A stretch of DNA of 64,000 bases from a virus, in the IMG/VR virus record IMGVR_UViG_3300045988_135203, positions 49,699 to 113,698 of that record. One strand, given 5' to 3'. The notes beneath the pieces are model-generated. The model had not been told where the DNA came from. It saw nothing but the letters and a program-made list of their open reading frames with translations, and searched no databases. A program made the translations under genes and the position numbers. This document shows positions 18,130 to 58,428 of the stretch, one piece after another; the first letter of the stretch is position 1; each line of letters begins with the position of its first letter.

Positions 18130-21100
18130 ATGGCAGATAATGCGAAAGCTTTGGACGATATATTTAAGTCTATAGATATTATTATAGATGGTAGACTTCA
18201 AGGATTAAAATTTGATAAAACTATTACTTGTTCCATTTTAAGTAATAAGAATGCCGCTCGGGGTGAGTATACTGTTACAGATGGCGCAACTACCTTTAAG
18301 GCATATTCTGATGTTACAACTTATCAAGTTAATCAATATGTTTATGTTAAAGTGCCTAATGGTAGTTTTAATAATAAAAAAATAATTACAGGAAGATATA
18401 TAGAAGAAAATAGTGAATACTATACTTATGTTCCACCACTTGATAGTTTTATAGATATGAGTCATAATCTCATTGATAATAGCATTAAACCATTAGGCTT
18501 AGTAGCTAATGGTAAAGAAAAAGAAATTGTTGTGTGGGAAAAGCATAATCTACATTATAATGATTATGATAGAATAGGTATTCGCGCAGGTTTTAGAACT
18601 TGGCTTAATCAATATGATTTGGTCAAAGGTAATTATGGTTTAAAACTTTATGTAGTAATTAAACGTGGAAAAGAAAATGAAGCGATTAATAAGCAAGATA
18701 TTTTTTCTGTATATTTTACTTTAGATACATCTGATTTCTATGGAAGTCTATATAATTATGAAACTTATTATAATCAAGAAAAAGTATTTGATATAGGACA
18801 ATACTTAGATGATGAGCATTATATTTCTGATATAAGATTAGTATTTTTCCAAGATAATAATTTTGAAGATGCTAAAGGAAATAGAATAGCTAGCGCAATA
18901 CCAGATTCTGGGGTAGAATTACCCAAAAATATTTTTATGGCAAGCCCTTATATTGGTATTGGTTATAATAAAAATAAGTATCCATCAGATACAGCATTAT
19001 TATATACTTTTGATTCTTTAGATTATAAGGCGTTATTATCTGACGAAGATAAAGCTAATTTTATTGCGGCTTTGGATGTAAATTCTGAAACTTATAATCA
19101 AGATAGAGATAATATACTTTATGATGCGGCAACCGCAAAAAATCTTTTAAATCAGCTTAATAGACGTAAATTACAAGTTCGATGGATTCATTTTGATGAA
19201 GATATGAATCCATATGTATTTGATAAAAATTCTGATTTACCAGAAACCGCGCAAGTACATTGGTATAGATATTTTCTTGAAGAAGAACTTAGTGATAAAC
19301 TTGCTGGAGCCTTTTGGAAAGAAATTGAAACACCAGATAAAAATTACTTTGAGTATAAAGATTTTGAGCCAGATATGACTCGACAGCATGATATGCTTAA
19401 AGTGATTATTGAGTATCCTTCTCGTGAAACTATTGCTAAACAAATTTATGATTTAAGTCTTAAAACTGGTGAAAAAGAAAATCCAGAAACAGGTAAGATA
19501 GATGAAGTTGGAGATTTACTTTATTCTTTTCTTCCCTCAAATAAAAAGCCAGATGATAAGACATATTATGATTATATAGAAGAAGCTAAATTAAATTTAA
19601 TTAATGCAATTCAAAAACTTGATAATTTACTTGAAGATTATGAGTTACAAGCGAATAGAGTTAATGAATTGTATAAAGAATTGGGTGAAAGACAGCAAGA
19701 ATATAAAAAAGCTCATCCTGAAAAAACAGACGATGATTTAGCTACTGATGAAAAATATCTAGCTATTGCTACATATTTTAATGACCAAGTAGATAATTTA
19801 ACTGATAGAACTAATGAAAAGCGTGACGAATTACAAACTATTAGTAATGAAGTAAGTGCTTATGAATCAGAAATTAATTATTATTCTTCTAGTGTCGTAG
19901 AATTTAAAAATTCTACTAATGTGATTGATAGTACTTCTGTTGATTTAATTAGCGGTCTTGATATTGTATGTGATCCAGAAGGATATAATGGTGTTTATAG
20001 AATTTATGATGATAATGGTGACATTATGAGTTCTAGTGAAAGTATAAAGAAAAGAATCTTGACTGCAACATATGAATCTTTAGTTACAGGTGATAAAACT
20101 CTTGATACTGCGGAAAAAATTTATTGGTATATTCCAATTACTAATACAATGATTCAATATCCAACAGAAGAAACTGAATATTCCTATTATACAAAGGTTG
20201 ATATAACTAATAGTGAATATAATGCGGCATTATATAAAGATAAATATTTTATAAAAGATTTATCTGGTATTTACCATCCTGCTACTTCTGATTATTCTAA
20301 TACTGAAAAATATTATGAAAGAAATACAACCACAACTTCAAAAACTAAGGACGGAAATTATTTTGTTATTTGTAGGAATGGTGTAAGTATTGATTCTGAG
20401 GCTGGAACTGAAGAATCTAAGAATGATAGTCAAATTTTTAGAGTTAAATCTTATTATAGTCAAAGTGCTGTAAATAATACTATTAGATGTATTATCGAAA
20501 AAAATGGGCGTAAATTTGAAAAAGATATTACATTAGTATTTGGTCCAACAGGAACAAATGGTACTACTTATACTTTATCATTAGAGTTTGATAATAAAGT
20601 TTCTGCGGTGACTGTTGCGGCAGATGATGGGAAAAATGGAAGTGGAATTTATAATTCAGTTAAAGTAATTCCGCATTTATATGATTATCAAAATAATGAT
20701 ATAACCGCAAAATTTGCTTCTGCGGGTAAAATTTCTTACTCTTGGTACTGCAAAGGTAATGAGGGATTAGGTATTAGTGACCCAGATGAAACGGATGGTT
20801 CCATTGAATTATTTGGTAAAAGTAGTAATATTGAAGATTATAAGTATTATATACTTTTATGTACAGTAGAAGATGCTACAGAAATTGTACCAAATAGTAA
20901 AATTAATTTAACTGCATATTTACCTATTCCAGTTAGAGCAAGTGAAATATATACTGCTTTTGATGGTGCTACTAAGATTACTTATGATTCAAATGGCGGT
21001 AATCCGCAGTTTTATAAAGATGGATACAAAATATATAAATATAACAATTCTTCTGGAAATAATGAGCCTATAATTAATGCTACTTGGGAAATATCTTTAG

Positions 21101-24100
21101 GTGATGATACTGTTGGTATTGATTTAAAAGATGAATATAAAACAACATCTGTAATTACTCAGTATTATCCTACTGTTACTACAGAAGGTGTTTTAAGTGC
21201 GCCAGCTATGTATTTAAAAGAGAACGGAAAGCAAGTTGGTGTATCATGTAAAGTAGATGGAAAAGTCGTATGGTTTCAACCTTTATATATTTATCAGAAT
21301 TCTTATTCATCTTCATTACTTAACTCCTGGGATGGTAGTTTGACACAAGATGAAAAAAATGGTACTATATTATCAACAATGATAGGAGCCGGAAAAAAGG
21401 ATACCTTTAACCGATTTAATGGTGTGCTTATGGGTGATATAAGTGCAGCGAATAATCAACATGATATTGGATTATATGGATATCATGAAGGCGTTCAAAG
21501 TTATGGGCTTAATATTAATGGTACTGCTTTTATAGGTAAATCTGGTAGGGGTCAGATTAAATTTAATGGAAATTCTGGTTATATCCAGAGCGGAAATTAT
21601 GGTAAGTCTGGTGCAGGTGGAATGCAGATTGACCTTAATAATGGTATATTAAAAATCATTGGTGAAAAATTTACTCAAGCACAAATTAAAGCAAATGGTA
21701 GTATTTTTAAAGGTGTAGACAAAGCCTATCAAGCTCAAATTGATTATTATAAATCAATTAAAGAAAGATTGGATGAGCAAGTAAAAAAATGTTCTGCTAA
21801 AGTAACAAGTTTAACAACTGTGCAAAAAGAATATCAAACTAATGCTAATAATTATAATCAGGCTATAACTGATGAAAATAAAGATAAGCAAACTGCTCAA
21901 TCTAATTTAGATATATTAAATGGTACTGGAACGAGTTCCATTAAACATATACAAAACCAAATAACTAAGGTGCAAGAGCAAATTAAAATAAAGAAGCAAG
22001 AATTAACAAATGCTCAAAAGAGTTCATTAAAAGCTTCTGATAAAATGAAAAAAATTTCAGAAATCAAAACAAAAATTTCTGAATTAAATTCGCAATTAAG
22101 TGGTTATCAAGCTAATTTAAGACAGAAAAAAACTGAGCGTGATAATTTAAAAGCTACAATAACCGTATGTGAAGGTAAGATTAAAACTTATACTCAAAGA
22201 AAGAATTTTTATATAAAGCGTCTTGAAGAAATAAATAATGAAATTACAACTTTAGGTAATGATAAGACTAAATATGAAAAACAATCTGGTAATTATGAAA
22301 ATTTAATTACAAGTCTTAATGATACTATTACAAAATATAATGCGGCAACTGGTGATACAAAGATAAAATATGAAAATTCTATGGTGAATTATCTTAGGGA
22401 GAATTTACCTGATAGTTTTGAAATATCTACTAAAACTACTGGAAGTCAAATTTTAATTTCATCTTTAAGCCCTTATTTAAAAATTATTTCTAATGATAAT
22501 AAGACCTTACTAAATATAGCAGATAATAGTTATTATTTACAGACAAATGATTTTGTTCAGCATGTATTAACTAATGGGGAATTTACAACTAAAGGTCAAG
22601 GTATGAAACTTGATTTACAGAATGGAAAAATTATTTCTTATAATTTTGATTTATTAGCTTTAGATTCTTCCGATGGAAATAATGCTGGGTCTTATATTAG
22701 AATAAGTAAATTTGGAAATCCTTATTTGAGAGTTCATTTTGAAGATAAGACTAAAAATCAAAAGTTAAATATATTAGAAATAACTAAAACTAATTTTTAT
22801 TTATGCTCTCATAATTGGGAAGCTAATAAGGAAGGCATTAATATAGATTTAACTAATGGTCGTATTACTGCTTTTAACAATTTTAACTTAAAAGCCACAA
22901 TAAATACCACAAATCAAAATGATAAACGATATAATGGTTCTTATGTACAAATTAAAAGTGGTGACCCATTTTTTACCGTTCATTTTGAAGATTCATATTC
23001 TCCCAAAAAAAGTTTAGACCTTATTAAAATAGGAATTAATAATTGGTTTATGCAATCTCAAGATTGGGTGAATGGAAAATCCGGTATTCGTTTTGACATG
23101 GCGAAAGGAAAAATTACTGCTTATAGTTTTACAATTAAAGCATATAAAACTGAAAAAAAATATATTTATATAGATAGTACAGATAATACGCATCCATTAA
23201 AAATAGGTAATAAATTTAGTGTAGATTGGGAAGGTAAAGTAACTGCAAGTTATATTGATGCTAGTGGTGGAACTATTGGTCCATTTACTATAGATAGTAA
23301 AGCATTGTATTCTGAAGGAAATGCATTAGGTTCTTCTGGAGTATATTTAGGTAAAGCAGGTCTTAGCGTTAATAATGATTTAATAGTACGAACTTCTCCA
23401 GGAACAAATGAATATACTCTTACTGTTGGTGGTACTTCTTATTTTGGAGGACCAATGACAGTTGCTGGTTCTTTAGGTGTTACCAGTAATGGAAGTATTA
23501 CTGCCGCTGGTAGCATTACTGCAAATGGAACGCTTACTACGAATGGAAGTTTAGTAGTTGCTAATGGTGGTAGTTTTGGTGGAGATATAAATGTAATTGG
23601 AAATCTTAAAGTAAGTGGTAGTATTTATGATTCTAATGGCAGATGGAGTTCTACTGGACAAGATGGTGGTAGTCAGAAATTATATGGTACTTCTGGTAAT
23701 ATTGGTAATTGGGGTATTAATGATGGCCGTATTGCTAATGGTCAAACAACTTTAGGTAGCGATGGAATAATTACTGCTGGAAATATTACTATTAATGGTG
23801 GCGATGGAAGCAATGGAACTATTACATTTGGAAATAATGCAAATATTCATCAGGGCTCATCTACCCTTTATTTACAGGGTGGTACTAATGGAGTACAAAT
23901 AGGGCTTGGAAATGTATCTTCATCTTTGGATTATCCAATTATAATGGCGACAAATACAAAAGTTAATGGAACTTTTAGTGCTACAACAATAAAGCAAGGG
24001 TCTCAAGAGCTTAAAGCTTTGGCTTTTGCGGATGACATAAAAAAAAAGTTTAACATAAGTTATGTAAATTTTGATTTTTGGTATAAAGTGAGCGAAAAAA

Positions 24101-24585
24101 CTATAAATATAAATAAAAATTCTTCAAATAGTAAATCGTCTTATTATGTTAGCTCTGTTTATGGATACAAAAAGAATGGAAGCTCAACTACTTATGCTGT
24201 AAGAAAACATAGCTATGTTTATTCTGCAACTTTTAGACGACCTCAAGGAACAGGTTACTATTATTATACTAAGCTATCATTTGATGGATATCCAGGACCT
24301 GATGTTCTAGGTGATGAAACTTTTTATAGTGGTCCCGTTGCTATAATTCCTTACGATTATGAATATGTAGATAATTATGATTATGTTACACTTTCAGAAG
24401 GTTATTATTTATATACTCATCAAGATAATCCAACTGTAGATTTTAATACAGTAGAAAAATCTGGATACACTAAAAAAACAATGGCGCTATCTAAAAAAGG
24501 TACTAAAAAAGTTACATTTGGCCCTAATGACCCTACAGATTCAAGTTCAGATACAATCACATTAACTAATGTAGATTTTTCTTAA
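18130..24585 (+). CDS. giant tail/baseplate-associated protein (2152 aa from ATG 18130) with a coiled-coil region, three tandem ~90-aa repeats and beta-helix-like fibre repeats
   Basis: The ORF track's GTG 18112 is replaced by ATG 18130, which has AGGAGG 7 nt upstream. Coiled-coil stretch at ~21720-22350. Three ~90-aa tandem repeats at ~22594-23280 (GQGMKLDLQNGKIISYNF... / GINIDLTNGRITAFNNF... / GIRFDMAKGKITAYSF...). Gly-rich SLGVTSNGSITAAGSITANGTLTTNGSLVVANGG fibre-like repeats at ~23470-23630. Confidence 0.7.
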   Translation: MADNAKALDDIFKSIDIIIDGRLQGLKFDKTITCSILSNKNAARGEYTVTDGATTFKAYSDVTTYQVNQYVYVKVPNGSFNNKKIITGRYIEENSEYYTYVPPLDSFIDMSHNLIDNSIKPLGLVANGKEKEIVVWEKHNLHYNDYDRIGIRAGFRTWLNQYDLVKGNYGLKLYVVIKRGKENEAINKQDIFSVYFTLDTSDFYGSLYNYETYYNQEKVFDIGQYLDDEHYISDIRLVFFQDNNFEDAKGNRIASAIPDSGVELPKNIFMASPYIGIGYNKNKYPSDTALLYTFDSLDYKALLSDEDKANFIAALDVNSETYNQDRDNILYDAATAKNLLNQLNRRKLQVRWIHFDEDMNPYVFDKNSDLPETAQVHWYRYFLEEELSDKLAGAFWKEIETPDKNYFEYKDFEPDMTRQHDMLKVIIEYPSRETIAKQIYDLSLKTGEKENPETGKIDEVGDLLYSFLPSNKKPDDKTYYDYIEEAKLNLINAIQKLDNLLEDYELQANRVNELYKELGERQQEYKKAHPEKTDDDLATDEKYLAIATYFNDQVDNLTDRTNEKRDELQTISNEVSAYESEINYYSSSVVEFKNSTNVIDSTSVDLISGLDIVCDPEGYNGVYRIYDDNGDIMSSSESIKKRILTATYESLVTGDKTLDTAEKIYWYIPITNTMIQYPTEETEYSYYTKVDITNSEYNAALYKDKYFIKDLSGIYHPATSDYSNTEKYYERNTTTTSKTKDGNYFVICRNGVSIDSEAGTEESKNDSQIFRVKSYYSQSAVNNTIRCIIEKNGRKFEKDITLVFGPTGTNGTTYTLSLEFDNKVSAVTVAADDGKNGSGIYNSVKVIPHLYDYQNNDITAKFASAGKISYSWYCKGNEGLGISDPDETDGSIELFGKSSNIEDYKYYILLCTVEDATEIVPNSKINLTAYLPIPVRASEIYTAFDGATKITYDSNGGNPQFYKDGYKIYKYNNSSGNNEPIINATWEISLGDDTVGIDLKDEYKTTSVITQYYPTVTTEGVLSAPAMYLKENGKQVGVSCKVDGKVVWFQPLYIYQNSYSSSLLNSWDGSLTQDEKNGTILSTMIGAGKKDTFNRFNGVLMGDISAANNQHDIGLYGYHEGVQSYGLNINGTAFIGKSGRGQIKFNGNSGYIQSGNYGKSGAGGMQIDLNNGILKIIGEKFTQAQIKANGSIFKGVDKAYQAQIDYYKSIKERLDEQVKKCSAKVTSLTTVQKEYQTNANNYNQAITDENKDKQTAQSNLDILNGTGTSSIKHIQNQITKVQEQIKIKKQELTNAQKSSLKASDKMKKISEIKTKISELNSQLSGYQANLRQKKTERDNLKATITVCEGKIKTYTQRKNFYIKRLEEINNEITTLGNDKTKYEKQSGNYENLITSLNDTITKYNAATGDTKIKYENSMVNYLRENLPDSFEISTKTTGSQILISSLSPYLKIISNDNKTLLNIADNSYYLQTNDFVQHVLTNGEFTTKGQGMKLDLQNGKIISYNFDLLALDSSDGNNAGSYIRISKFGNPYLRVHFEDKTKNQKLNILEITKTNFYLCSHNWEANKEGINIDLTNGRITAFNNFNLKATINTTNQNDKRYNGSYVQIKSGDPFFTVHFEDSYSPKKSLDLIKIGINNWFMQSQDWVNGKSGIRFDMAKGKITAYSFTIKAYKTEKKYIYIDSTDNTHPLKIGNKFSVDWEGKVTASYIDASGGTIGPFTIDSKALYSEGNALGSSGVYLGKAGLSVNNDLIVRTSPGTNEYTLTVGGTSYFGGPMTVAGSLGVTSNGSITAAGSITANGTLTTNGSLVVANGGSFGGDINVIGNLKVSGSIYDSNGRWSSTGQDGGSQKLYGTSGNIGNWGINDGRIANGQTTLGSDGIITAGNITINGGDGSNGTITFGNNANIHQGSSTLYLQGGTNGVQIGLGNVSSSLDYPIIMATNTKVNGTFSATTIKQGSQELKALAFADDIKKKFNISYVNFDFWYKVSEKTININKNSSNSKSSYYVSSVYGYKKNGSSTTYAVRKHSYVYSATFRRPQGTGYYYYTKLSFDGYPGPDVLGDETFYSGPVAIIPYDYEYVDNYDYVTLSEGYYLYTHQDNPTVDFNTVEKSGYTKKTMALSKKGTKKVTFGPNDPTDSSSDTITLTNVDFS

Positions 24586-24625: not shown

Positions 24626-25024
24626 ATGCAAACAACAAAGACTTTAAAAAATGGTGAAATTTTTGAAATGGCAACAAATTTAATTGAGGCTTTTCAGAAA
24701 GATACAGAATCTGGAGAAAAGACTTATCCAATTAAAGTTTTGTTTTATCTTAGAAAAAATATGAAAACTCTTACAGAGCTTGCTCAGGATATTGAGAAAG
24801 CAAGAGTTGAAATTATTCAAAGATATGGAACTCCATCAGAGGAGAATCCAGAGCAATATCAATTTGAGACACAAGAAAAAATTGATGCGGCAAATAAAGA
24901 ATTTGAAGAGCTGTTCGGTTTAGAGCAGGAAGTTACTATTTATACAATTCCATTAGAGGCTTTCAATGACATGGAACTCACTGAAAAACAGATGGATGCA
25001 GTAATGGAAATGATTGAGGAGTAA
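24626..25024 (+). CDS. small acidic hypothetical protein (132 aa), possibly an assembly chaperone
   Basis: RBS AAAGGAGATAAAGGA. Very acidic. Sits between two large tail genes. Confidence 0.55.
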   Translation: MQTTKTLKNGEIFEMATNLIEAFQKDTESGEKTYPIKVLFYLRKNMKTLTELAQDIEKARVEIIQRYGTPSEENPEQYQFETQEKIDAANKEFEELFGLEQEVTIYTIPLEAFNDMELTEKQMDAVMEMIEE

Positions 25025-27769: not shown

Positions 27770-27773
27770 TAAT

Positions 27774-38816: not shown

Positions 38817-38844
38817 ATATAAAAAGATAGAAAGGAGATACCGC

Positions 38845-49259: not shown

Positions 49260-49850
49260 GTGATTACAACTCCACAAGAATACTATGACTTACTTTACAG
49301 AATTCAGGATGAAAATAAACCAACTCTTGCGCTATTACTTCCTAGCGATGAAAAAATCTTTGAAATAGATTTGAATACGCGTAAGATTGATGCTCCTAAA
49401 TATTTAAGCGTAGAATTAGACCATAAAGCTGAAACAATTTATTTTAAAATTGCAAGATATTATGATAATATTGATTTAGCTAATATGACTTGTATAGTTC
49501 AATATATTAATGCTAAGGGTGAGGGCCGCGTTTATGCGGTCCCTTACTATGATGTTGATACTTATTCCGACGAGAATATGATGCTTTTCCCTTGGTGTAT
49601 AGATGGAGAAGCAACAAAAGCCGCAGGTGATGTATCATATTCAGTGCGTTTTTATGACATAGATGAGTCTGGTACTTATTTGCGTTATAATATTAGTACT
49701 CTTCCTTCAAAAAGTGAAGTATTACATGGTATTGCACCAAAGACTGATATAGATAATTCCAATGATTATTTAGCTAGTTTTAAAGACCAGTTATTTGCAG
49801 AAATTAAGAAAATTTCTGAATACGATTTACATTGGGAAGACCACTTTTAA
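49260..49850 (+). CDS. short paralogue (196 aa) of the N-terminal domain of the preceding gene
   Basis: GTG start with AAAGGAGG upstream. Clear protein-level similarity to residues ~30-230 of ORF 47067-49232. Followed by a strong terminator. Confidence 0.6.
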   Translation: MITTPQEYYDLLYRIQDENKPTLALLLPSDEKIFEIDLNTRKIDAPKYLSVELDHKAETIYFKIARYYDNIDLANMTCIVQYINAKGEGRVYAVPYYDVDTYSDENMMLFPWCIDGEATKAAGDVSYSVRFYDIDESGTYLRYNISTLPSKSEVLHGIAPKTDIDNSNDYLASFKDQLFAEIKKISEYDLHWEDHF

Positions 49851-49896: not shown

Positions 49897-49985
49897 GACA
49901 AAAATAATTAAAATAAAATTAGATATTTTTATAAATTCATAGAGATATAAAAAACTTAAATGAAATGAGAAAAAGGAGGTTAAAC

Positions 49986-52900
49986 ATGGCAGACAATACA
50001 ATAGCTAATGCTATTAAATTTTTAAAAGGCGAAGAAAAAAGTTTGCCCGCAACCAAAACTGAAGGTCAAGTATATTTTGCCTATAAGAATGTCGGCACCG
50101 CAGAGAAACCTTCATATACAGGTGCTATTTATATAGATACTCCTATTGGAGGAACTCAGAATAGAATAAAAATGACCGCAAATGCGGATATAGCAGAATA
50201 TGCTAAAAAAGCTAATACAGATTCTCAAGGTAATCTTATTACAGGATATTTAAGAAATGCTTCTTTGACTGGAAATGCTGATAGTCAAACTTTTACATTT
50301 ACTGCACCTAGTGGTGCAAAATTTAATTTAAAATTAAACGGAGTAAATGATTCACAAGCTGGATTAGTTACTTCTGGTGATCAAATATTTCCTGGATATA
50401 AAACATTAAAATTAAGAGCTAAACCTAGTTCTATAGTTGGCTCAAATGCTGAAAATTCAGATGGATGGTATAAAGTTGCTACAAGTACAATGAGGGATTA
50501 TGATAATACTAATATTTTATACTATGTTAAAAATGGATATAGTTCAGAAGCAGTCGGTATTTTAGATTTTGAAATGAGAAGTAATGATACTAGTATTCAA
50601 TGTTGGGCTTGTAAATGGCTTGTAAGAGGTGCTGGATTTACATCAGGTATGTTTCGTGTTGTTATTGATGGAATGACATGGACCTTATATGCTTATCAGC
50701 CAGTAAAAAGATGGGGTCGTATTTCAATAACTGAAATTTCCAATACAAATATGAGTGGTAATAATCCCAATTATAAAATTACTTATTATAATTCAACCAC
50801 TAAAGAAACTACTGAGCCTGATAAAACGATTAGTTCATCAGATGGCGGACAAGTATATTTAGCAAGCAAAACCACAAGCGATGGAAATGGTCAAAATATT
50901 GCTAATACTTATATTAAATCTTTATCATATTCTAATGATGGAAAGCAATTAATAGCAACGAGAGGCTCAGGGGATACCTCTTTAAAACTTTCATTACCAG
51001 TAGCTAGTTTAACTAAATCTGGTATTGTCACCACTGATGCTCAAAGTTTTGGTGGAACAAAGACTTTTACTACTATTAATTCTACCAATTTAACTGTAAC
51101 TGGTTCTAGTGGTTTTAATTATAGTGGTATTGAAACTGCCACTGGTAATAAAGCAAGACCAGTTTGGTTTGCATATGATGGCATAAATGGTAAGCCTGTA
51201 GTTAATGCTAATTTTACTTATAATCCTGCTACCCAGACACTTAGTGTTGCAAATTTATCTGGAACTGCACAAAAAGCTAGTAATGATGATGGTGGACAGA
51301 ATATTAGAAGTACTTATGTAAAATATAAAACTATAAAATTCAGTGCTGCAGCTGATAAAATCTATCTTTTAGAAGGTAATGGTGCAGGTAGTTCAACTAA
51401 TACTACTATAGGTGATTCAAACATTTCTACAGCCATCATTCCTGCAGCAACAGACAAAGCCGCAGGAGTTATTACAACTGGAACACAAACCTTTAGTGGT
51501 GAGAAAAAATTCAATAATACCATATTCGTAAATGACTGTTTAGCTAGTAAGTCTATAACAGGAACAAATATTACTAAATTAGTATTACTTAGTACACCTA
51601 ATGCAAATATAGGAGATGCTTCTCATACTACTTCAGTTTATTTTAAAGCTTTATTAAAATGGATTTGTTCTAATTATCCTAATAAAATTGAGTGTACTTT
51701 TTTGGGAAAAGTAACTCCTAGCTCAATAGCAAATACATCTATTTTTATTTATAATACTAGTCAAATAGATGCTACTTCTGGTTTACCTCAATATTCATCT
51801 GGTAGTTATACTCACCTTGGTGGTAATATTTATACTTTTGGTACTTATAATTATGCTTTTTACTTTAGAGAAAGCTTAATGTCGGATGACCATTATGCGG
51901 GTTCTGCTTCTTCAGGTGGTGCAGCCACAAGTGCTAATAAATTAAATACCAATGCAGGCTCAGCAACCCTACCAGTATATTTTTCTAATGGTATACCAGT
52001 AGCTTGTAGTACAAATTTAGGAGTTAGTATAACAGGAAATGCAGCTTCTGCTACTAAGTTAACTTCAAGTGCAGGTTCTACTACTCAGCCTATATATTTT
52101 AAAGATGGGAAACCTGTTGCTACTACCTATTCTTTAAATGCCACTATAAAAGCAGGAGTATCTAATAGGATAGCTTTTTATTCTGGTAATAATGAAATTT
52201 CAAGTACTAATTATTTAAAATATTATACTGCTACAAATAGTAAAAAAGCAAATCAAACTATTTTACGTATTTGGGGTACTACTTATGGTAATGATGCAAC
52301 TACTACAATTAGCGGTAAAGCAAGTTCTTTAAATTGGAACGATGGTGGCCCGCAAATACAATTTAGTACTTCTGAAGCAGGATCTCAAGATGGAGCTTTA
52401 ATTTTTACAGACCATGATTCAGCAGGAATTGGAGCAAGTTTTCATTTTGTATCAAATCAAAGTGAATGGAGTGTTGTTTCTAAAAGATTTGTTGCAAAAA
52501 CAAGTATAATCATCGGTCAAGAAGCTCATACCTCTGACAATCAAGGTTATAATTTATATGTTAATGGAACTGAATATATTAATGGAATTTTAACAGCTGT
52601 TGGTGATTGTAAGTTTATTGCTCATGGTAATGAATTCAATTTTGTTCCAACTTTAAAAGCCTCAACTTCTGTATGGCTTAATTATAGACAGACAGGTGGA
52701 CAACCTACAGATGGTGACTTTATTATTAATGAATATATTTTTGGTAATGGTGCAAATAAAGCTTTAGCAAGCATTAAAGATGGTTTATTTTCCGGAGCTG
52801 CTACTTATGTTCGTGATTCTAATAATAAAACAAATAATATTTCAATAACTTATTCTAAAGTTGGACAAACATCAACTTCTTGGCTTGCTTCTTGGAATGG

Positions 52901-54074
52901 GTATGAATTAGGTTGTATTTCTCCTGCTAATATTACTGCGGGTAAAGCTACTAAATTAGCTACAGTACGTACTATAACTTTATCTGGAGCTGTAACTGGC
53001 TCAGTTAGTTTTGATGGTAGCGCAAATGTAACTCTTACTACAAATGTTAATCATACGCATAGTCAATATTATGATTCAAATATATCGAGAACTAAAAATA
53101 CAGTACTTGCTGCACCAAATGGAGCAGATGGTAAAGCTGTATTTAGAAGTTTAGTTGCTGCAGATATTCCTTCTTTAACCAAGAGTAAAATATCTGATTT
53201 TCCAAGCTCTATGCCTGCGAGTGACGTTTATGCATGGGCTAAAGCAAGCAGTAAACCAAGTTATAGTTGGGGTGAGATTACTGGTAAACCGAGTACATTT
53301 ACACCAAGTAGTCATACTCATAATTATTTACCTCTTTCAGGTGGAACAATGTCTGGAGATATAGGTATACCTAATACACCTTCTACTATTGATGGTTCCG
53401 TCCCATATGCAGGTTCTGTTGTAGTTACTGATAATATTACTAAATTTTCATCTTATAAAACATATTTAGGCACATATTGTGATAGTACGGGTACCTGGCG
53501 CAATATGATTTCTATAAGACATAGAAATGGTGCCAATGATGGAATTGATTATGGCATGATGATTTATACACAGCTTACTAGTAAAAGTGATCTTAACTGG
53601 AATAAACAGATAGGAAAAGACAACTGGCAGGGAAGCCGTACAATCCTCGATTCTTCAAATTTCGTTACATATGTACCAACAAAAACTGGTGGTGGAGCTT
53701 CAGGAACTTGGGGAATCAGTGTAACTGGCTCTTCTACATCTTGTACAGGTAACGCTGCTACTGCAACTAAACTTCAAACAGCATGCACTATCAATGGAAC
53801 TTCTTTTAATGGAACAAGTAATATTACAACCTCATATTGGGGAACCGCTAGAAATATTTATATTAGAGATTGTACTAATTCTAATACAGGAACTGCTGTT
53901 TCAGTAAATGGTTCTACCAATGCTTATCTTTCAATGCCATCAACAGCGAGGTTTACTGGTTCTGTTGGAATTGGAAACGGTTCTGGAGCAACTCTTAATT
54001 TCTATACTGCTGCAGACACTATTGGCGCAAAAATTGTTGCATATAACGATAGAATAGAATTCGTATTTGCTTAA
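49986..54074 (+). CDS. tail fibre / receptor-binding protein (1362 aa from ATG 49986)
   Basis: The track start 49965 has no RBS. ATG 49986 has AAAGGAGG 7 nt upstream. Contains two copies of the fibre motif common in phages of Gram-positive bacteria: AGKATKLATVRTITLSGAVTGSVSFDGSANVTL..NHTHSQY (~52940-53060) and AATATKLQTACTINGTSFNGTSNITT (~53757-53830). Also contains GTWGISVTGS, which is shared with the downstream fibres. Confidence 0.75.
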   Translation: MADNTIANAIKFLKGEEKSLPATKTEGQVYFAYKNVGTAEKPSYTGAIYIDTPIGGTQNRIKMTANADIAEYAKKANTDSQGNLITGYLRNASLTGNADSQTFTFTAPSGAKFNLKLNGVNDSQAGLVTSGDQIFPGYKTLKLRAKPSSIVGSNAENSDGWYKVATSTMRDYDNTNILYYVKNGYSSEAVGILDFEMRSNDTSIQCWACKWLVRGAGFTSGMFRVVIDGMTWTLYAYQPVKRWGRISITEISNTNMSGNNPNYKITYYNSTTKETTEPDKTISSSDGGQVYLASKTTSDGNGQNIANTYIKSLSYSNDGKQLIATRGSGDTSLKLSLPVASLTKSGIVTTDAQSFGGTKTFTTINSTNLTVTGSSGFNYSGIETATGNKARPVWFAYDGINGKPVVNANFTYNPATQTLSVANLSGTAQKASNDDGGQNIRSTYVKYKTIKFSAAADKIYLLEGNGAGSSTNTTIGDSNISTAIIPAATDKAAGVITTGTQTFSGEKKFNNTIFVNDCLASKSITGTNITKLVLLSTPNANIGDASHTTSVYFKALLKWICSNYPNKIECTFLGKVTPSSIANTSIFIYNTSQIDATSGLPQYSSGSYTHLGGNIYTFGTYNYAFYFRESLMSDDHYAGSASSGGAATSANKLNTNAGSATLPVYFSNGIPVACSTNLGVSITGNAASATKLTSSAGSTTQPIYFKDGKPVATTYSLNATIKAGVSNRIAFYSGNNEISSTNYLKYYTATNSKKANQTILRIWGTTYGNDATTTISGKASSLNWNDGGPQIQFSTSEAGSQDGALIFTDHDSAGIGASFHFVSNQSEWSVVSKRFVAKTSIIIGQEAHTSDNQGYNLYVNGTEYINGILTAVGDCKFIAHGNEFNFVPTLKASTSVWLNYRQTGGQPTDGDFIINEYIFGNGANKALASIKDGLFSGAATYVRDSNNKTNNISITYSKVGQTSTSWLASWNGYELGCISPANITAGKATKLATVRTITLSGAVTGSVSFDGSANVTLTTNVNHTHSQYYDSNISRTKNTVLAAPNGADGKAVFRSLVAADIPSLTKSKISDFPSSMPASDVYAWAKASSKPSYSWGEITGKPSTFTPSSHTHNYLPLSGGTMSGDIGIPNTPSTIDGSVPYAGSVVVTDNITKFSSYKTYLGTYCDSTGTWRNMISIRHRNGANDGIDYGMMIYTQLTSKSDLNWNKQIGKDNWQGSRTILDSSNFVTYVPTKTGGGASGTWGISVTGSSTSCTGNAATATKLQTACTINGTSFNGTSNITTSYWGTARNIYIRDCTNSNTGTAVSVNGSTNAYLSMPSTARFTGSVGIGNGSGATLNFYTAADTIGAKIVAYNDRIEFVFA

Positions 54075-54088
54075 TATAAAAATCTAAT

Positions 54089-54125: not shown

Positions 54126-54155
54126 TACTATTATTTAGATATAAAGGAGTTAATT

Positions 54156-54959
54156 ATGCTAGACAATTTAAAAAATAATTTATTTTTGGAAGCCTATACT
54201 GTCGCGAATTTTGATAAACCGCACCTACTTTTTACTGATAATCAAACTTTTAGTTCTACAAATTCTTATACAAAACTTACTACTAGTGTTGGTGTACCTT
54301 ATGCTTATTACAGTGGGGGTACTACAATAAAAATAAGACAAAATTATGGTAGTTCTTTTGGATATTGCGGGTTTATGAGATTTCCTTATTCTCCCAGAAG
54401 TATTATAAATTTGGGGGCTTACAATGAAACGGGAGAAAAAGTTGTTCAAGATGTGCAAAATTATACAAATAATCAGTCTGAAGATTATTTTTTTTTAGTT
54501 GATATAATATATAATTCTGGTTCTAATGTTTATACGATAACATTAAATATTTACTCTACTTTACAAAATAAATGGGTTTATACTAATAACCTAAATATGC
54601 ATATGCCTAGTGGATATAATACAGATTCAATATCAGATTATTGTCCTGGATTTATATTTGAAACTACTGGTCCTGTATGGATATATAATTTTAGAGGATA
54701 TGGCTATAGTATTGGTAAAATTAATGCAGAAGATTTAGCTTGTGGGAAAGTATATTATATAAAAGCTACTAAAACTTTAATGGCACCTTGCTTTAATGAA
54801 TACAAAAATACTGATTATGCTAATGGTGGACATAATTATACTAATACTTGCTTTTCTAGGAAGGGCGGAGTTTGCTGTAAAGGTACTATCGAACAATCTA
54901 ACTTAAATAGAATTACTAGAACAGGTGATGTAAAATATAATGATATTATTGAATATTAA
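54156..54959 (+). CDS. hypothetical Cys-containing protein (267 aa) embedded in the fibre cluster
   Basis: RBS AAAGGAG. Has its own terminator upstream. No signal peptide. C-terminal CFSRKGGVCCKGT. Confidence 0.55.
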   Translation: MLDNLKNNLFLEAYTVANFDKPHLLFTDNQTFSSTNSYTKLTTSVGVPYAYYSGGTTIKIRQNYGSSFGYCGFMRFPYSPRSIINLGAYNETGEKVVQDVQNYTNNQSEDYFFLVDIIYNSGSNVYTITLNIYSTLQNKWVYTNNLNMHMPSGYNTDSISDYCPGFIFETTGPVWIYNFRGYGYSIGKINAEDLACGKVYYIKATKTLMAPCFNEYKNTDYANGGHNYTNTCFSRKGGVCCKGTIEQSNLNRITRTGDVKYNDIIEY

Positions 54960-54970
54960 GGAGGGATAAA

Positions 54971-56071
54971 ATGGCAATTTTAAAAGATACGACAATTAAT
55001 GGGACTTTAACCTTGACGGGAAATGGCTATATAACTCTTCCTAAAAAATCTCTTTCTTGGTTACAAGGTTTTCAGCAATCTCCAATTCAAATATCAGATG
55101 CTACTGATAATGGCGGTTATCATCCTTGGATAATCCAGAAGAATACAAGTTCTGCAAAAATGTTTACGATGGGTGTTTATCAAAGTTATTTTGTAATGGC
55201 GGGAAGTGCAACTTCAAGAACAAGTAATGGTTATGATAATGCATTATTTTTTAATGTTACTAATGGAGAATTGAAATTAAATAATTCTTATCTTTATTTA
55301 CATTCTAATAATTATAATAATTATGCTCCTACTAAATCTGGCGGTGGCGCACATGGTACTTGGGGTATTAATATTTCAGGTAACGCCGCAAGCCTATCCT
55401 CAACATTACCTATTAGTAAAGGTGGTACTGGAAGTACAAGCTTTACTTCTAATAGAATGATATATTATAATGGTTCTAGATTAGTATCAGCAAGCAATGT
55501 TAGAGTTTATAGTTCAGAAATTTTTGTTGAAGTTAATAATACTGATACAGTACGTTTTTATGTTCAAAATAATAATAATACTGTAGATTTAAGAACATCA
55601 ACTAGTGCAGGTGTTTATCATAGTAATAGTAAAGGAAGTAAATCAGCTAAATGGCTTATTTATATCAATACTTCTGGAACAGTTGTTGCTAATACATCCG
55701 ATAGAAGAAAGAAAAAATATATTGAAGATACTACAGAATATGAAACAACTTCGATATTAAAAAATATTAAAATTCGTAATTTTATATATAAAGAAGATAT
55801 AGGACATAATAATTTAGTTCAAAATGGTATTTTTGCTCAGGATTTAAGGGATATTATGAAACATTATAATATAAGTAATCGTCCTTGGTTGCAATGGCAT
55901 TATAATAATGATGATAATGTTTATTATGATATAAATGAACCAGAAACAGATAATATGACTTATGAAATTAATTATTCTAGTTTAATTCCATTACTTATAA
56001 AAGGTTGGCAAATTAATGAAAATAAAATTTCTCAATTAAAAGATAAAATTAAAGAATTGGAAGAGATGTAA
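54971..56071 (+). CDS. tail fibre protein with a C-terminal S74-type intramolecular chaperone (autoproteolytic) domain (366 aa)
   Basis: C-terminal ~140 aa (TSDRRKKKYIED...GIFAQDLRD...INYSSLIPLLIKGWQ...LKDKIKELEE) fit the Peptidase_S74 chaperone domain of endosialidase and L-shaped fibres: the Ser-Lys dyad context, the GxxAQ(D/E) motif and YxSLIPLL. The shared motif PTKSGGGAHGTWGINISGNAASLS links it to the neighbouring fibres. Confidence 0.7.
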   Translation: MAILKDTTINGTLTLTGNGYITLPKKSLSWLQGFQQSPIQISDATDNGGYHPWIIQKNTSSAKMFTMGVYQSYFVMAGSATSRTSNGYDNALFFNVTNGELKLNNSYLYLHSNNYNNYAPTKSGGGAHGTWGINISGNAASLSSTLPISKGGTGSTSFTSNRMIYYNGSRLVSASNVRVYSSEIFVEVNNTDTVRFYVQNNNNTVDLRTSTSAGVYHSNSKGSKSAKWLIYINTSGTVVANTSDRRKKKYIEDTTEYETTSILKNIKIRNFIYKEDIGHNNLVQNGIFAQDLRDIMKHYNISNRPWLQWHYNNDDNVYYDINEPETDNMTYEINYSSLIPLLIKGWQINENKISQLKDKIKELEEM

Positions 56072-56074
56072 ATT

Positions 56075-57331
56075 ATGTCTAGATTACGTTCTACTTTAAT
56101 AAATGGAGATTTAACTACTACTAATACTATTACAATTCCACAGAGAAATGTTTCATGGATAGATGGATTTAAAAATTCACCAATTAAAATAATTGATAGT
56201 ACTGATTCATCTAATTATACCCCTTGGTTAATACAATATAATATAGCAGATACTTATACTAGTTATGTTAGTTTTGGGACTTTTATAAATGATATAACTT
56301 TAGTTGGAATACATAAAACTAAATATGATGATGCTATTGAAATTGAACCAGAAAGTAATAATTCTAATATTGCAGTAGCTTCTGACCCTGATGTAACTTT
56401 TGAAGAAGATTTAGATGAAAATTGTATGGTTAGATGGTGGTTTAATGTTGATAATGGCGGATTTGGTATAAGAGGTAGTAAAAAAAGATTAAATGATAAA
56501 AATTGTTATTATATTAATTCTAATAATTATACTAATTATATGCCATCTAAAGCAGGTTCTGGAGCTTCTGGCACTTGGGGAATTAATATTTCGGGTAATG
56601 CCGCAAGTTTATCAAAAGTATTATCAATAGATAAAGGTGGAACTGGTCATAGTTCAATGCAATCTGGTTGTATACTTGTCAAAGGTAGTGGCATCGGAAC
56701 TTTTCCTTGTCTTAAAGCTAATAATTCTACCTATGGAATAGAAACTACAACTGCACAAGCTAAAATAGGAGTATGGAATAATTATAATACAGTAGAATTA
56801 GCTACAAATCAAAATGCTGGTATTTATTGTGATGCTAAAACTTTTACTGATGGAGAAACGAATCCTCCAGATTCAATATATGGAAAGGAAAGTAGATGGC
56901 TCATTTATATTAATACTTCTGGTACTGTTACAAAAAATACCTCAGATAAAAGAAGAAAATTATATATAGAAGATATGCCAGAAAACGAAACTAAAGTATT
57001 ATTAAATGTTCCAATTCGCAACTTTGTATTTAAAGAAGACATTGGACATAATGACCTTGAACAAAATGGTGTATTTGCTCAAGATTTGCGGGAGTTATTA
57101 AAAAAGAATAATATAGGTAATCGTCCTTATTTACAATGGGAATATAACGATAATGACAGAGATGATGTATATTATGATATTAATGCTCCAGAAAAAGATG
57201 ATATGACTTATTCTGTATCTTATAATCATATGATACCTGCGCTTATCAAAGGCTGGCAAATGCAGAATAAAGAAATTGAAGAATTAGAAAAGAAACTCGC
57301 AATACTTAGAATAAAGAAATTAGGTAAATAA
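56075..57331 (+). CDS. paralogous tail fibre protein with a C-terminal S74-type intramolecular chaperone domain (418 aa)
   Basis: Tandem paralogue of the previous gene with a 3-nt gap. Contains SKAGSGASGTWGINISGNAASLS and a C-terminal TSDKRRKLYIED...GVFAQDLRE...VSYNHMIPALIKGWQ. Confidence 0.7.
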   Translation: MSRLRSTLINGDLTTTNTITIPQRNVSWIDGFKNSPIKIIDSTDSSNYTPWLIQYNIADTYTSYVSFGTFINDITLVGIHKTKYDDAIEIEPESNNSNIAVASDPDVTFEEDLDENCMVRWWFNVDNGGFGIRGSKKRLNDKNCYYINSNNYTNYMPSKAGSGASGTWGINISGNAASLSKVLSIDKGGTGHSSMQSGCILVKGSGIGTFPCLKANNSTYGIETTTAQAKIGVWNNYNTVELATNQNAGIYCDAKTFTDGETNPPDSIYGKESRWLIYINTSGTVTKNTSDKRRKLYIEDMPENETKVLLNVPIRNFVFKEDIGHNDLEQNGVFAQDLRELLKKNNIGNRPYLQWEYNDNDRDDVYYDINAPEKDDMTYSVSYNHMIPALIKGWQMQNKEIEELEKKLAILRIKKLGK

Positions 57332-57333
57332 TT

Positions 57334-58428
57334 ATGGCTATTATTGGAAAATGGATGTTTTATAGATCTGGAAGTTTGGGCAGTAAAAAATTTGCTACTA
57401 ACAATGAAATGATTCAAGAAGGCGATGAATTTTTTTGGAAAATAGATTATAAGGGCAATTTTACTGGAACTGCCCATCAAGCCAATCAATTAGGAAGCTC
57501 AACTATTGGTAGCTTAACAAAACCAATATACTTAGTAAACGGAAAACCTACAGCTTGTAGTGATTTAATGCCTAAATCTGGAGGAACTTTTTCTGGTGCT
57601 GTAACATTTAATAGTACAGTTACATGCAGCTCTACTTTAAAGTGCGGAGAATACATAAAAAGTAGTAAATCAGCTTATGCTGGTATAACCAGTTACATAG
57701 ATATGGCAGCTACATCTACAGCTGCTGGAGTAAAAGGTGCAATTTGTATTAGAAATAGTAGTGGAATACATATACAAGGTAATATTGTTGTAATTGAAGG
57801 CGACACAAGTACACCTGCTGCATATGAAGCAGGATATCATATGACAGAAACTGGAAATATGTGTGTTAGAGGAAAATTTCTATGTAAAAATGTTATAGGC
57901 TCATCATATATGTACAATCATGACACAGTATCTGGTGGTGCTAATGTTTATGTTACTTCTAATGGTTGGTTAAGAAGAGCTACTTCTTCAGCAAAATATA
58001 AATTAGATATTAAAGAAATAGAAGAAGACGAAAAATATCCTTATAAAATTTTAAATTTAAAACCAAAACAATGGTTTGATAAAAATAGCATTGAAAAATA
58101 CTCTCAATGGTTAGAAGGTAAAATTAAAAAAGATGAATTAGATGATTGTTCGATAGATTCTTATTATGGCTTAATAGCCGAAGATGTAGAAAAAGTTGGT
58201 TTAAATAAATTTTGTTTTTATGGATATGATAATGCTCGTAATTTAAAAACTATAGAAGGTATTCAATATGATAGATTGCCTATTTTATTTATACCAATAT
58301 TAAATGATTGTATTGATTGTTTTAAAGCTATTTTACCAACAGTGAAAGAGAATATTAAAGATAAAGAAACGTTAGATAAAATTGCTTCGTTAGAAGATAA
58401 ATTTAATTCTATTGGACTTTCTTCTTAA
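57334..58428 (+). CDS. third fibre-like protein with a divergent C-terminal S74-like chaperone domain (364 aa)
   Basis: Starts 2 nt after the previous stop. The C-terminus (ATSSAKYKLDIKEIE...YGLIAEDVEKV...IQYDRLPILFIPILND) matches the same chaperone-domain pattern. Confidence 0.6.
   Translation: MAIIGKWMFYRSGSLGSKKFATNNEMIQEGDEFFWKIDYKGNFTGTAHQANQLGSSTIGSLTKPIYLVNGKPTACSDLMPKSGGTFSGAVTFNSTVTCSSTLKCGEYIKSSKSAYAGITSYIDMAATSTAAGVKGAICIRNSSGIHIQGNIVVIEGDTSTPAAYEAGYHMTETGNMCVRGKFLCKNVIGSSYMYNHDTVSGGANVYVTSNGWLRRATSSAKYKLDIKEIEEDEKYPYKILNLKPKQWFDKNSIEKYSQWLEGKIKKDELDDCSIDSYYGLIAEDVEKVGLNKFCFYGYDNARNLKTIEGIQYDRLPILFIPILNDCIDCFKAILPTVKENIKDKETLDKIASLEDKFNSIGLSS

What the first reader, a model, noticed from the sequence alone, without database searches (positions are those of the whole stretch)
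18130..58428. Hyper-expanded host-recognition apparatus: about 40 kb and at least 12 tail, fibre and RBP genes
After the TMP there are proteins of 2152, 912, 856, 1794, 303, 530, 2627, 721, 196, 1362, 267, 366, 418 and 364 aa, almost all with fibre or adhesin character. Most siphophages devote 5-10 kb to this function. An apparatus this large suggests a very elaborate baseplate carrying multiple distinct RBPs. It is worth checking whether this is a jumbo-like phage lineage with an unusual adsorption device.
Basis: inference. Interest (0 to 1): 0.65.

Follow-up and report, generated by a model that had tools for sequence, protein, structure and literature searches.

The report
Giant three-layer phage tail-tip module
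This 40-kb stretch is the complete tail-end (adsorption) gene module of a large uncultured gut phage; it is four to eight times the usual size, but most of it is a conserved scaffold of giant adhesin-like proteins, and only the last ~8 kb behaves like swappable receptor-binding genes.

Summary
It lies exactly between a 3148-aa tape measure protein and a holin. It is not an assembly chimera.

- A 19.5-kb module (122, 1794, 303, 530, 2647, 70, 721, 196 aa), conserved in order in about 66 uncultured 110-200 kb phage contigs. It is absent from the cultured and published relatives (Enterococcus VRE9/EF1, phAss-1). It includes a 2647-aa protein ending in a BspA-type LRR domain.
- An 8.2-kb exchange cassette (50197-58425) of five fibre genes, three with chaperone-type C-termini. 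At least three alleles sit between identical breakpoints.

So true receptor-binding variability occupies about 8.7 kb. The rest is a conserved giant scaffold or adhesin set of untested function. The genome is about 180 kb, just under jumbo size. Many relatives are TAG- or TGA-recoded. I rate it a new variant of a known kind, of moderate interest.

The parts
8567..18013 (+). Tape measure protein, 3148 aa (upstream boundary; implies a tail of roughly 470-500 nm)
   Evidence: PF10145 PhageMin_Tail E 1.5e-27 and 11 TMP PHROGs. phAss-1 has a 3150-aa homologue. The middle part, 10093-14450, diverges between close relatives.
18112..24585 (+). 2157-aa (2151 from ATG 18130) central tail-fibre candidate: N-terminal helix plus small OB-fold, an array of beta-sandwich (pilin/CBM-like) domains, a Gly-rich beta region, a variable coiled coil (about res 1200-1450) and a strain-variable C-terminal tip
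24626..25024 (+). 132-aa protein, function unknown
   Evidence: phrog_1401, E 2.4e-5, unknown function. Called as a gene on an independent contig.
25031..27769 (+). 912-aa protein directly upstream of the hub; distal-tail-protein candidate by position only
   Evidence: phrog_30026. Homologous to the VRE9_2 617-aa protein that also precedes the hub, and to part of a phAss-1 1880-aa protein. The hhalign test against Dit references was inconclusive.
27753..30341 (+). Baseplate hub / Tal-type protein, 862 aa (855 from ATG 27774): N-terminal ~270-290 aa has the gp27/Mu gp44 fold; the C-terminal half is unassigned
30358..30726 (+). 122-aa protein, conserved partner just after the hub, function unknown
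   Evidence: Present at the same position in L004, L005 and L006 and on the ENA contig. No family hit.
30732..36116 (+). 1794-aa conserved giant: highly conserved N-terminal ~560 aa, Tyr-rich middle, about 4 tandem 'D.AGHVT..TLP.GFK..ADN.QDTLT..GNKWI' repeats (about res 1236-1600), C-terminal coiled coil
   Evidence: Alignment A4. Hits in 56 loci. A 51-nt tandem repeat at 35903-36004. No PHROG, Pfam or PDB match.
36204..37115 (+). 303-aa conserved protein, function unknown
   Evidence: Hits in 67 loci. Only unknown-function PHROGs.
37135..38727 (+). 530-aa conserved fibre-like protein (N-terminal G.FYLT.DT.RLY.G motif, then a Thr/Ser/Gly/Val-rich beta sequence)
   Evidence: Alignment A2. 62 of 67 loci have at least 50% coverage. 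No Pfam or PDB match.
38782..46725 (+). 2647-aa conserved giant adhesin-type protein: near-invariant globular core (about res 900-1030 and 1490-1720) and a C-terminal BspA-type leucine-rich-repeat domain (about res 2330-2600)
   Evidence: LRR_5 43.8 bits, cutoff 27.7, found in 7 of 8 diverse members. Profile against PDB: 4fs7 E 2e-27, PcpA 8e-15. The core is shared with the Hankyphage DGR-target ORF and with a Heliusvirales fibre-position protein. 71 IMG/VR loci. 939 cluster representatives, nearly all 2100-2960 aa.
46741..46953 (+). 70-aa ORF, possible small gene
   Evidence: ORF listing only. Conservation was not checked.
47067..49232 (+). 721-aa conserved protein: N-terminal domain (res ~90-250) paralogous to the 196-aa protein, then at least 3 Ig-like domains
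   Evidence: BLASTP 36% identity to the 196-aa protein. Y.W...G.Y.C.V.N motif in A3. Weak PDB Ig-like hits, E 0.0026. Weak Pfam Ig_3/I-set hits in a few members.
49260..49850 (+). 196-aa conserved protein, last gene of the conserved module
   Evidence: 66 of 66 loci with at least 50% coverage. Paralogue of the 721-aa N-terminal domain.
49965..54074 (+). 1369-aa (1362) tail fibre: conserved N-terminal ~77 aa, then mosaic; first gene of the exchange cassette
   Evidence: Tail-fibre PHROGs. Dec-stalk and tail-collar-fibre beta-helix motifs. DNA identity to close relatives breaks at 50197.
54156..54959 (+). 267-aa cassette protein, unknown (possible fibre assembly or adaptor protein)
   Evidence: No family hit. 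Found in only 1 related locus.
54971..57331 (+). Tandem paralogous short fibres of 366 and 418 aa with C-terminal intramolecular-chaperone (Peptidase_S74) domains
   Evidence: 43% identity to each other. PF13884 at 25.6 and 24.8 bits, cutoff 22. Tail-fibre PHROGs. They share a 'GGGASGTWGI' junction motif with the 1369-aa protein.
57334..58428 (+). 364-aa third short fibre or spike; last gene of the cassette
   Evidence: phrog_1330 tail protein E 6e-24. PF13884 at 19 bits, below cutoff. Identity to relatives resumes at 58425-58449.
58714..59136 (+). Holin (downstream boundary of the structural block)
   Evidence: phrog_13712 holin, E 7.5e-35.

Best explanation
The region is the complete distal-tail (tail-tip complex, baseplate and fibre) gene module of a ~180-kb uncultured gut phage. 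The phage very probably has a long non-contractile tail and is related to the phAss-1 / Enterococcus EF1-VRE9 group. The module has three layers. Layer 1 is a family-wide tail-tip core. The 862-aa protein forms the trimeric hub that closes the tube (fold shown). The 2157-aa protein is the central fibre: its N-terminal OB-fold docks under the hub, and its beta-sandwich array, coiled coil and swappable tip project towards the cell (inferred). The 912-aa protein probably supplies the distal-tail ring (position only). Layer 2 is a clade-specific, strongly conserved 19.5-kb set of proteins (122, 1794, 303, 530, 2647, 70, 721, 196 aa). These build a very large peripheral baseplate or appendage structure carrying constant adhesin domains (BspA-type LRR, Ig-like arrays, repeat fibres). 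They presumably give reversible binding to an invariant surface polymer (inferred). Layer 3 is an 8.2-kb recombination cassette of five fibre genes, three with self-cleaving chaperone-type C-termini. It sets strain specificity and is exchanged between otherwise ~95%-identical genomes (exchange shown; role inferred).
Against: No virion proteomics or microscopy exists for this clade, so incorporation of the giant proteins into virions rests on gene position. Five large or mid-size proteins (912, 1794, 303, 196, 267 aa) have no fold or domain assignment. The near-invariant core of the 2647-aa protein looks globular, possibly enzymatic, rather than fibre-like, and has no solved relative. No Dit was identified. 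In the Enterococcus relatives the hub and its 912-like partner lie after the lysis genes, so gene position is not a rigid guide in this family. The best hub matches are to contractile systems. Foldseek TM-scores for the 2157-aa model are low, 0.06-0.18.
Confidence: 0.7

Rival explanations
1. The conserved giants (especially 2647 and 1794 aa) are virion-associated but are not host-recognition proteins. They would be cell-envelope-degrading enzymes, ejection or channel-forming proteins, or scaffolds, so the real recognition apparatus is of ordinary size (central fibre tip plus the 8-kb cassette).
For: High conservation of sequence and order across about 66 loci. Long near-invariant blocks rich in Asp/His/Cys/Trp in the 2647 family and in the 1794 N-terminus. 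No fibre-type PHROG, Pfam or PDB hit for these cores.
Against: The 2647-aa protein ends in a BspA-type LRR adhesin domain in 7 of 8 diverse members. Its core is shared with the Hankyphage protein whose C-terminus is diversified by a DGR, a hallmark of ligand binding. The 721-aa protein carries Ig-like arrays. The 1794-aa protein has fibre-type repeats and a coiled coil.
Confidence: 0.2
2. The phage has a contractile (myovirus or CIS-like) tail, and the module is a complex wedge-type baseplate like that of large myoviruses, for which 30-40 kb would be unremarkable.
Confidence: 0.08
3. The block is an assembly artefact or a chimera of two phages or prophages, inflating the apparent module.
For: The region is mosaic relative to the closest IMG/VR contig at 50.2-58.4 kb.
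Against: The identical order 721-196-1362-267-366-418-364-DUF1653-holin...RuvC occurs on at least 6 contigs from at least 4 samples. The upstream half is collinear at 95% on an independent ENA contig. GC content and skew are uniform. The mosaic boundaries coincide with gene-module boundaries and recur in a third allele.
Confidence: 0.02

Closest known systems
phAss-1 / Enterococcus phage EF1-VRE9 group (candidate family; PMC10607447)
   Same: Same PHROG order from capsid to TMP. TMP of about 3150 aa in phAss-1. A ~2156-aa first post-TMP protein in phAss-1. Homologues of the 912-like domain and of the hub.
   Different: They lack the 1794-303-530-2647-721-196 module entirely. Their post-TMP structural genes total about 21 kb. 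In VRE9_2 the hub pair lies after the holin and endolysin. phAss-1 is TAG-recoded, whereas the window reads in the standard code.
Siphophage T5 tail tip (pb2 TMP, pb9 Dit, pb3 hub, pb4 central fibre, pb1 side fibres)
   Different: From general knowledge, the T5 tip proteins are about 200-1400 aa and the module is far smaller. There is no counterpart of the 2647/1794/530/721 set. Dit was not identified here.
Hankyphage (Bacteroides phage p00) 2245-aa DGR-target tail protein
   Same: Shares the conserved central core of the 2647-aa protein (28% identity over 246 aa, E 1e-12). Both are giant proteins placed after the minor tail proteins.
   Different: No reverse transcriptase and no template/variable repeats here or in 70+ related loci. 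The C-terminus is a BspA-type LRR rather than a DGR-diversified domain.
Multi-RBP baseplates of Gram-positive siphophages (lactococcal TP901-1/p2, staphylococcal 80alpha)
   Different: Those baseplates are encoded by roughly 5-10 kb (general knowledge; SPP1 about 5 kb). Here the equivalent block is 40 kb, with single proteins above 2000 aa.
Endosialidase-type fibres and spikes with a C-terminal intramolecular chaperone (Peptidase_S74, e.g. K1F)
   Same: The 366- and 418-aa proteins pass the Pfam cutoff for PF13884 near their C-termini, and the 364-aa protein is just below it.
   Different: They are short proteins with no recognisable enzymatic head. Autocleavage is untested.
Enterocloster phage PMBT24 (PMC11035940)
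   Same: Named as a possible member of the same broad family. It is a siphovirus with globular distal-tail appendages and thin tip fibres, the kind of structure expected here.
   Different: 100-kb genome, 1508-aa TMP, 238-nm tail. It was not among the tblastn matches listed for the window's 2157-, 912-, 862- and 2647-aa proteins.

Membership tests
Siphophage tail-tip module (TMP - Dit - Tal/hub - fibres - lysis) | Tape measure protein gene immediately upstream | tested here: met
   PF10145 E 1.5e-27; 11 TMP PHROGs.
Siphophage tail-tip module (TMP - Dit - Tal/hub - fibres - lysis) | Hub/Tal protein with the gp27-like fold | tested here: met
Siphophage tail-tip module (TMP - Dit - Tal/hub - fibres - lysis) | Distal tail protein (Dit) with a tube-like N-terminal domain | tested here: inconclusive
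   hhalign of the 912, 303, 196, 132 and 122 families against SPP1 and Heliusvirales Dit found nothing, but the positive control (862 against SPP1 Tal) also failed. The 912-aa protein is a candidate by position only.
Siphophage tail-tip module (TMP - Dit - Tal/hub - fibres - lysis) | No tail sheath; non-contractile tail | tested here: inconclusive
   No sheath Pfam or PHROG hit for any upstream ORF. The 491-aa ORF at 6362-7837 is unassigned. Microscopy exists only for the distant relative PMBT24.
Siphophage tail-tip module (TMP - Dit - Tal/hub - fibres - lysis) | Module ends at the lysis cassette | tested here: met
   Holin phrog_13712 at 58714-59136.
Contractile-tail / CIS wedge baseplate | Sheath plus gp25/GPW and gp6/Baseplate_J-type wedge proteins | tested here: not met
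   None of these families was hit in Pfam or PHROG scans of all ORFs. Divergent versions cannot be excluded.
Peptidase_S74 intramolecular-chaperone fibres | C-terminal PF13884 domain above the gathering score | tested here: met
   366 aa: 25.6 bits; 418 aa: 24.8 bits; cutoff 22. The 364-aa protein scores 19.0, below cutoff.
Peptidase_S74 intramolecular-chaperone fibres | Autoproteolytic release of the chaperone after trimerisation | not testable with these tools
   Requires biochemistry.
BspA-type LRR surface adhesins | LRR_5 repeats above the gathering score | tested here: met
   2647-aa protein: 43.8 bits against 27.7. Found in 7 of 8 diverse family members. Profile against PDB: 4fs7 E 2e-27.
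DGR-diversified phage receptor-binding protein (Hankyphage type) | Nearby reverse transcriptase and a template/variable repeat pair | tested here: not met
   No TR/VR-like direct repeat in the window. No RT homologue in the window or in any fetched locus.
Jumbo phage | Genome of at least 200 kb | tested here: not met
   Near-identical proteins lie on contigs of at most 178-183 kb. Relatives are 110-201 kb, with one 402-kb contig of unknown status.
phAss-1 / EF1 candidate family | Shared capsid-to-TMP synteny and homologous tail-tip core proteins | tested here: met
   The same PHROG series as VRE9_2. BLASTP matches to phAss-1 capsid-to-tail genes, TMP, the 2156-aa protein, the 912-like domain and the hub.
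phAss-1 / EF1 candidate family | TAG-to-Gln recoding (defines the 'code 15 clade', not the whole family) | tested here: not met
   All window ORFs are intact in table 11. TAG is simply unused as a stop, 0 of 27.

The most novel reading that the evidence does not exclude
The clade-specific 19.5-kb module (30358-49850) would encode a previously undescribed, very large baseplate organelle on a siphophage. It would be built around the 2647-aa LRR protein, which belongs to a family of about 900 clusters of 2100-2960-aa proteins whose conserved core also underlies the Hankyphage DGR target. On this reading it is a new class of giant gut-phage adhesin, whose constant domains bind an invariant ligand (a cell-wall polymer, or possibly host mucus via the LRR and Ig arrays), while a separate small cassette tunes strain specificity.
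Probability: 0.3. Interest if true: 0.7.

Novelty: new variant of a known kind. Interest (0 to 1): 0.5.

Why it matters
Host recognition is the main unknown for the abundant uncultured phages of the gut. This clade is widespread: the hub family alone has at least 3460 members, the 2647-aa core has about 940 cluster representatives, and there are 71 IMG/VR contigs. It separates a conserved set of giant adhesin-like proteins from a compact, recombining specificity cassette with sharply defined breakpoints. That gives concrete targets: the cassette and the tip of the 2157-aa protein for host-range prediction or engineering, and the 2647-aa LRR protein and 721-aa Ig protein for ligand discovery. 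It also links the Hankyphage DGR-target protein to a much larger protein family. If the module is all in the virion, it would be among the largest adsorption devices encoded by a non-contractile-tailed phage.

Tried and rejected
1. Read-through or recoding as an explanation for the gaps between big ORFs. Rejected: each gap holds its own small ORF in another frame, and every ORF ends in TAA or TGA.
2. Internal paralogy as the source of the expansion. Only 366/418 and the 721/196 N-terminal domains are paralogous.
3. A DGR acting on the 2647-aa protein. No repeats and no reverse transcriptase.
4. Chimeric assembly. Rejected.
5. Sequence searches of the PDB with single proteins and family profiles for 2157, 862, 1794, 530 and 364 aa found nothing useful.
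6. Dit identification by hhalign was uninformative because the control failed.
7. hhalign of the 2157 family against the VRE9_2 2533-aa protein: no relationship.
8. A shared N-terminal anchor motif between the 530 and 2647 families, and a shared GHV repeat between the 530 and 1794 families: hhalign probabilities of only 8% and 13%, so not established.
9. CotH-like identity for the 2647 core. This was my own recollection of a motif resemblance; neither Pfam nor the PDB profile search supported it.
10. A literature search for morphology of the VRE9/EF1 phages found nothing.
11. Megablast against deposited phages: no match.
12. Exact look-up of the 2647-aa protein: not on record.
13. The GTDB scan gave only six MAG contigs of mixed taxonomy, so the host remains unknown.
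Full report
OBSERVATION. The window is a single + strand late operon with low G+C (27-35%) and uniformly positive GC skew up to about 62 kb. After a 3148-aa tape measure protein (8567-18013; PF10145 and eleven TMP PHROGs), ORF listing gives proteins of 2157, 912, 862, 1794, 303, 530, 2647, 721, 196, 1369, 267, 366, 418 and 364 aa. The three apparent gaps each hold a small ORF in another frame, of 132, 122 and 70 aa. The first two are called on independent contigs. The block (18112-58428; 40.3 kb, 17 ORFs, about 13,200 aa, about 98% coding by arithmetic on those coordinates) ends at DUF1653 and a holin (phrog_13712, 58714-59136). A minus-strand RuvC follows at about 62.7 kb.

NOT AN ARTEFACT. 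The upstream half is collinear at 95% identity with an independent ENA contig. The exact downstream order 721-196-1362-267-366-418-364-DUF1653-holin...RuvC occurs on at least six contigs from at least four samples. Near-identical copies of the 2157- and 862-aa proteins lie on contigs of 178-183 kb, so the genome is about 180 kb and the block is about 22% of it. No deposited phage matches at the DNA level.

LINEAGE. The TMP N-terminus, the 912-aa protein and the 862-aa protein have distant homologues in phAss-1 (136 kb, 'code 15 clade') and in the cultured Enterococcus phages VRE9_1-4, H1, EF1 and EF5 (134-142 kb). VRE9_2 shows the same PHROG series from capsid to TMP as the window. The phAss-1 paper groups phAss-1, EF1 and the Enterocloster phage OQ326496 into a candidate family (PMC10607447). 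OQ326496 is PMBT24, a siphovirus with an 84-nm head, a 238-nm flexible non-contractile tail for a 1508-aa TMP, 'globular appendages' at the distal tail end and thin tip fibres (PMC11035940). At that ratio the window's TMP implies a tail of roughly 0.5 µm (inference).

THREE LAYERS. (a) Family-wide core. Under code 15, phAss-1 reads TMP 3150 aa, then 2156 aa, several mid-size proteins, an 1880-aa protein containing the 912-like domain, and a 741-aa homologue of the 862-aa protein. VRE9_2 has the 912-like (617 aa) and 862-like (921 aa) pair, placed after its holin and endolysin. (b) Clade-specific conserved module. Using the 2647-aa protein as a probe, 71 IMG/VR loci on contigs of 110-201 kb (one of 402 kb) were recovered. 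In these, the order 862 - ~120 aa - 1794 - 303 - 530 - 2647 - 721 - 196 is conserved, with 56-71 loci hit per protein. None of 1794, 530, 2647, 721 or 196 has a homologue in VRE9_2 or phAss-1. (c) Strain-variable parts. Against the closest relative (IMG/VR contig 3300045988_131786), DNA identity is 93-94% over 14450-24052 and 24582-50197. It collapses to islands over 50197-58425 and resumes at 95% exactly at the stop codon of the 364-aa gene. A second contig (L077) carries a third, different cassette between the same breakpoints. The last ~180 codons of the 2157-aa gene (24052-24582) are likewise replaced in two relatives but not in a third. Across 28 relatives where it can be measured, the distance from the 196-aa homologue to the first conserved post-structural gene is 1.5-6.6 kb (median 3.2 kb), against 9.4 kb in the window, the largest seen.

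WHAT THE PROTEINS ARE.
- 2647 aa. It has a BspA-type LRR at the C-terminus (Pfam 43.8 bits; 7 of 8 diverse members; PDB profile E 2e-27 to 4fs7 and 8e-15 to the pneumococcal adhesin PcpA). Its near-invariant core is shared with the 2245-aa Hankyphage ORF that carries the DGR variable repeat, and with a 1673-aa protein in the fibre position of a Heliusvirales phage. The core family has 939 cluster representatives, nearly all 2100-2960 aa. No DGR is present here.
- 721 aa. An N-terminal domain paralogous to the 196-aa protein is followed by Ig-like domains; the evidence for these is weak but consistent.
- 1794 aa. A very conserved N-terminal ~560 aa, about four tandem repeats and a C-terminal coiled coil. 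No database match.
- 530 aa. Fibre-like composition with a conserved N-terminal motif. No match.
- Cassette. The 1369-aa protein has tail-fibre PHROGs and beta-helix motifs matching the phage L Dec stalk and a tail-collar fibre. The 366- and 418-aa proteins are 43%-identical tandem paralogues with Peptidase_S74 chaperone domains above cutoff. The 364-aa protein matches tail-protein PHROGs, with S74 just below cutoff.
- Unassigned: 912, 303, 196, 267, 132, 122 and 70 aa. The Dit test was uninformative.

MECHANISM (most likely; confidence 0.7). A long non-contractile tail ends in a hub trimer (shown by fold) with a giant central fibre (inferred). Around it, the conserved giants form a large appendage structure with constant LRR, Ig and repeat-fibre adhesin domains, for reversible binding to an invariant surface polymer (inferred from domains, conservation and position). 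The exchange cassette of one long and three short chaperone-assisted fibres, plus the swappable tip of the central fibre, sets strain specificity. The exchange is shown; the function is inferred.

RIVALS.
- The giants are enzymes or ejection/scaffold proteins rather than adhesins (0.2).
- The tail is contractile with a wedge baseplate (0.08). No sheath, gp25 or gp6 families were found, but the hub's best matches are contractile systems.
- The block is a chimera (0.02).

COMPARISON AND SIZE. Equivalent blocks measure about 5 kb in SPP1, about 9 kb in a Heliusvirales gut phage, about 21.5 kb in VRE9_2 and about 20.7 kb in phAss-1. The window's 40.3 kb is therefore exceptional for a sipho-type phage but normal for its own clade. 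Only the cassette is enlarged relative to clade members.

VERDICT. 'Hyper-expanded host-recognition apparatus with 12+ RBPs' is partly supported: about 8.7 kb behaves as receptor-binding cassettes, and about 31 kb is a conserved tail-tip core plus a clade-specific giant-protein module of untested function. Known kind (phage distal-tail module), unusual variant. Interest 0.5.

Noticed in passing
Related loci L004-L074 (homologues of window 27753-49850); window stop codons throughout: Among 61 full-length homologues of the 2647-aa gene, 38 are interrupted only by in-frame TAG, 2 only by in-frame TGA (L018, L061), and 21 are intact in the standard code. The window is standard-code, but none of its 27 large ORFs ends in TAG (TAA 21, TGA 6). 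This matches the published pattern for standard-code relatives of recoded phages (Borges et al. preprint 10.1101/2021.08.26.457843). phAss-1's TMP alone has 110 in-frame TAGs.
   Followed up: partly
window 8567-18013 (especially 10093-14450): The tape measure protein is 3148 aa, implying a tail of about 0.5 µm. Its middle third (10093-14450) is the only part of the first 50 kb, apart from the 2157-aa tip, that has diverged strongly from the two closest relatives (no alignment or about 67% identity, against about 90% on either side).
   Followed up: no
window 6362-7837: A 491-aa ORF lies between the putative major tail protein (333 aa, phrog_2729) and the chaperone-like 175-aa protein, and has no PHROG or Pfam hit. 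In phAss-1 the ORFs at the equivalent position (538 and 489 aa) were interpreted by its authors as a tail-fibre base plus a pectate-lyase receptor-binding protein. An additional fibre gene may therefore lie upstream of the TMP, outside the finding's coordinates.
   Followed up: no
L083 (Enterococcus phage VRE9_2, PP680568.1) 36120-47916: In the cultured Enterococcus relatives, the hub homologue (921 aa) and its 912-like partner (617 aa), with three more unknown proteins, lie downstream of the holin and endolysin, detached from the TMP-proximal tail genes. That is an unusual split of a tail-tip module.
   Followed up: no
L087/L001 (phAss-1, OQ749652.1) 4667-45950: In phAss-1 the chaperone-TMP-tail-tip block precedes the capsid genes, and the putative tail-tube gene lies about 38 kb from the TMP in the deposited linear record. 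This is a rearrangement relative to the window's contiguous head-tail order. The deposited annotation is fragmented because standard-code gene calls were used.
   Followed up: partly
L047 (IMGVR_UViG_3300032167_000002): One relative carrying the conserved module sits on a 402-kb contig, about twice the size of all the others. It could be a true jumbo member, a concatemer or a misassembly.
   Followed up: no
window 53650-53716, 55302-55368, 56517-56583: A shared ~67-nt segment encoding '...(K/S)(T/A)GGGASGTWGI' occurs near the end of the 1369-aa gene and in both short paralogous fibre genes. It is a plausible homologous-recombination junction for swapping fibre tips.
   Followed up: no
window 35903-36004: Two tandem 51-nt copies (80% identical) encode 'YTK(T/A)EID(N/D)KGY(F/L)T...' near the C-terminus of the 1794-aa protein, just after its coiled coil.
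   Followed up: no
window 58467-63727: The genes after the block are DUF1653, holin, several unknowns and an M78/SprT-like metallopeptidase motif protein (61829-62146). Then, on the minus strand, come RuvC (62667-63158) and a 189-aa ORF (63158-63727) whose counterpart on contig L095 carries dUTPase. No recognisable endolysin was found between the holin and the strand switch.
   Followed up: partly
L089-L094 (GTDB MAG contigs): Hub homologues occur on contigs binned into MAGs of Soleaferrea, Erysipelotrichaceae, 'Tenericutes', Clostridia (two) and one Bacteroidales. The taxonomy is mixed and binning-based, so it gives only a weak hint of Bacillota hosts.
   Followed up: no
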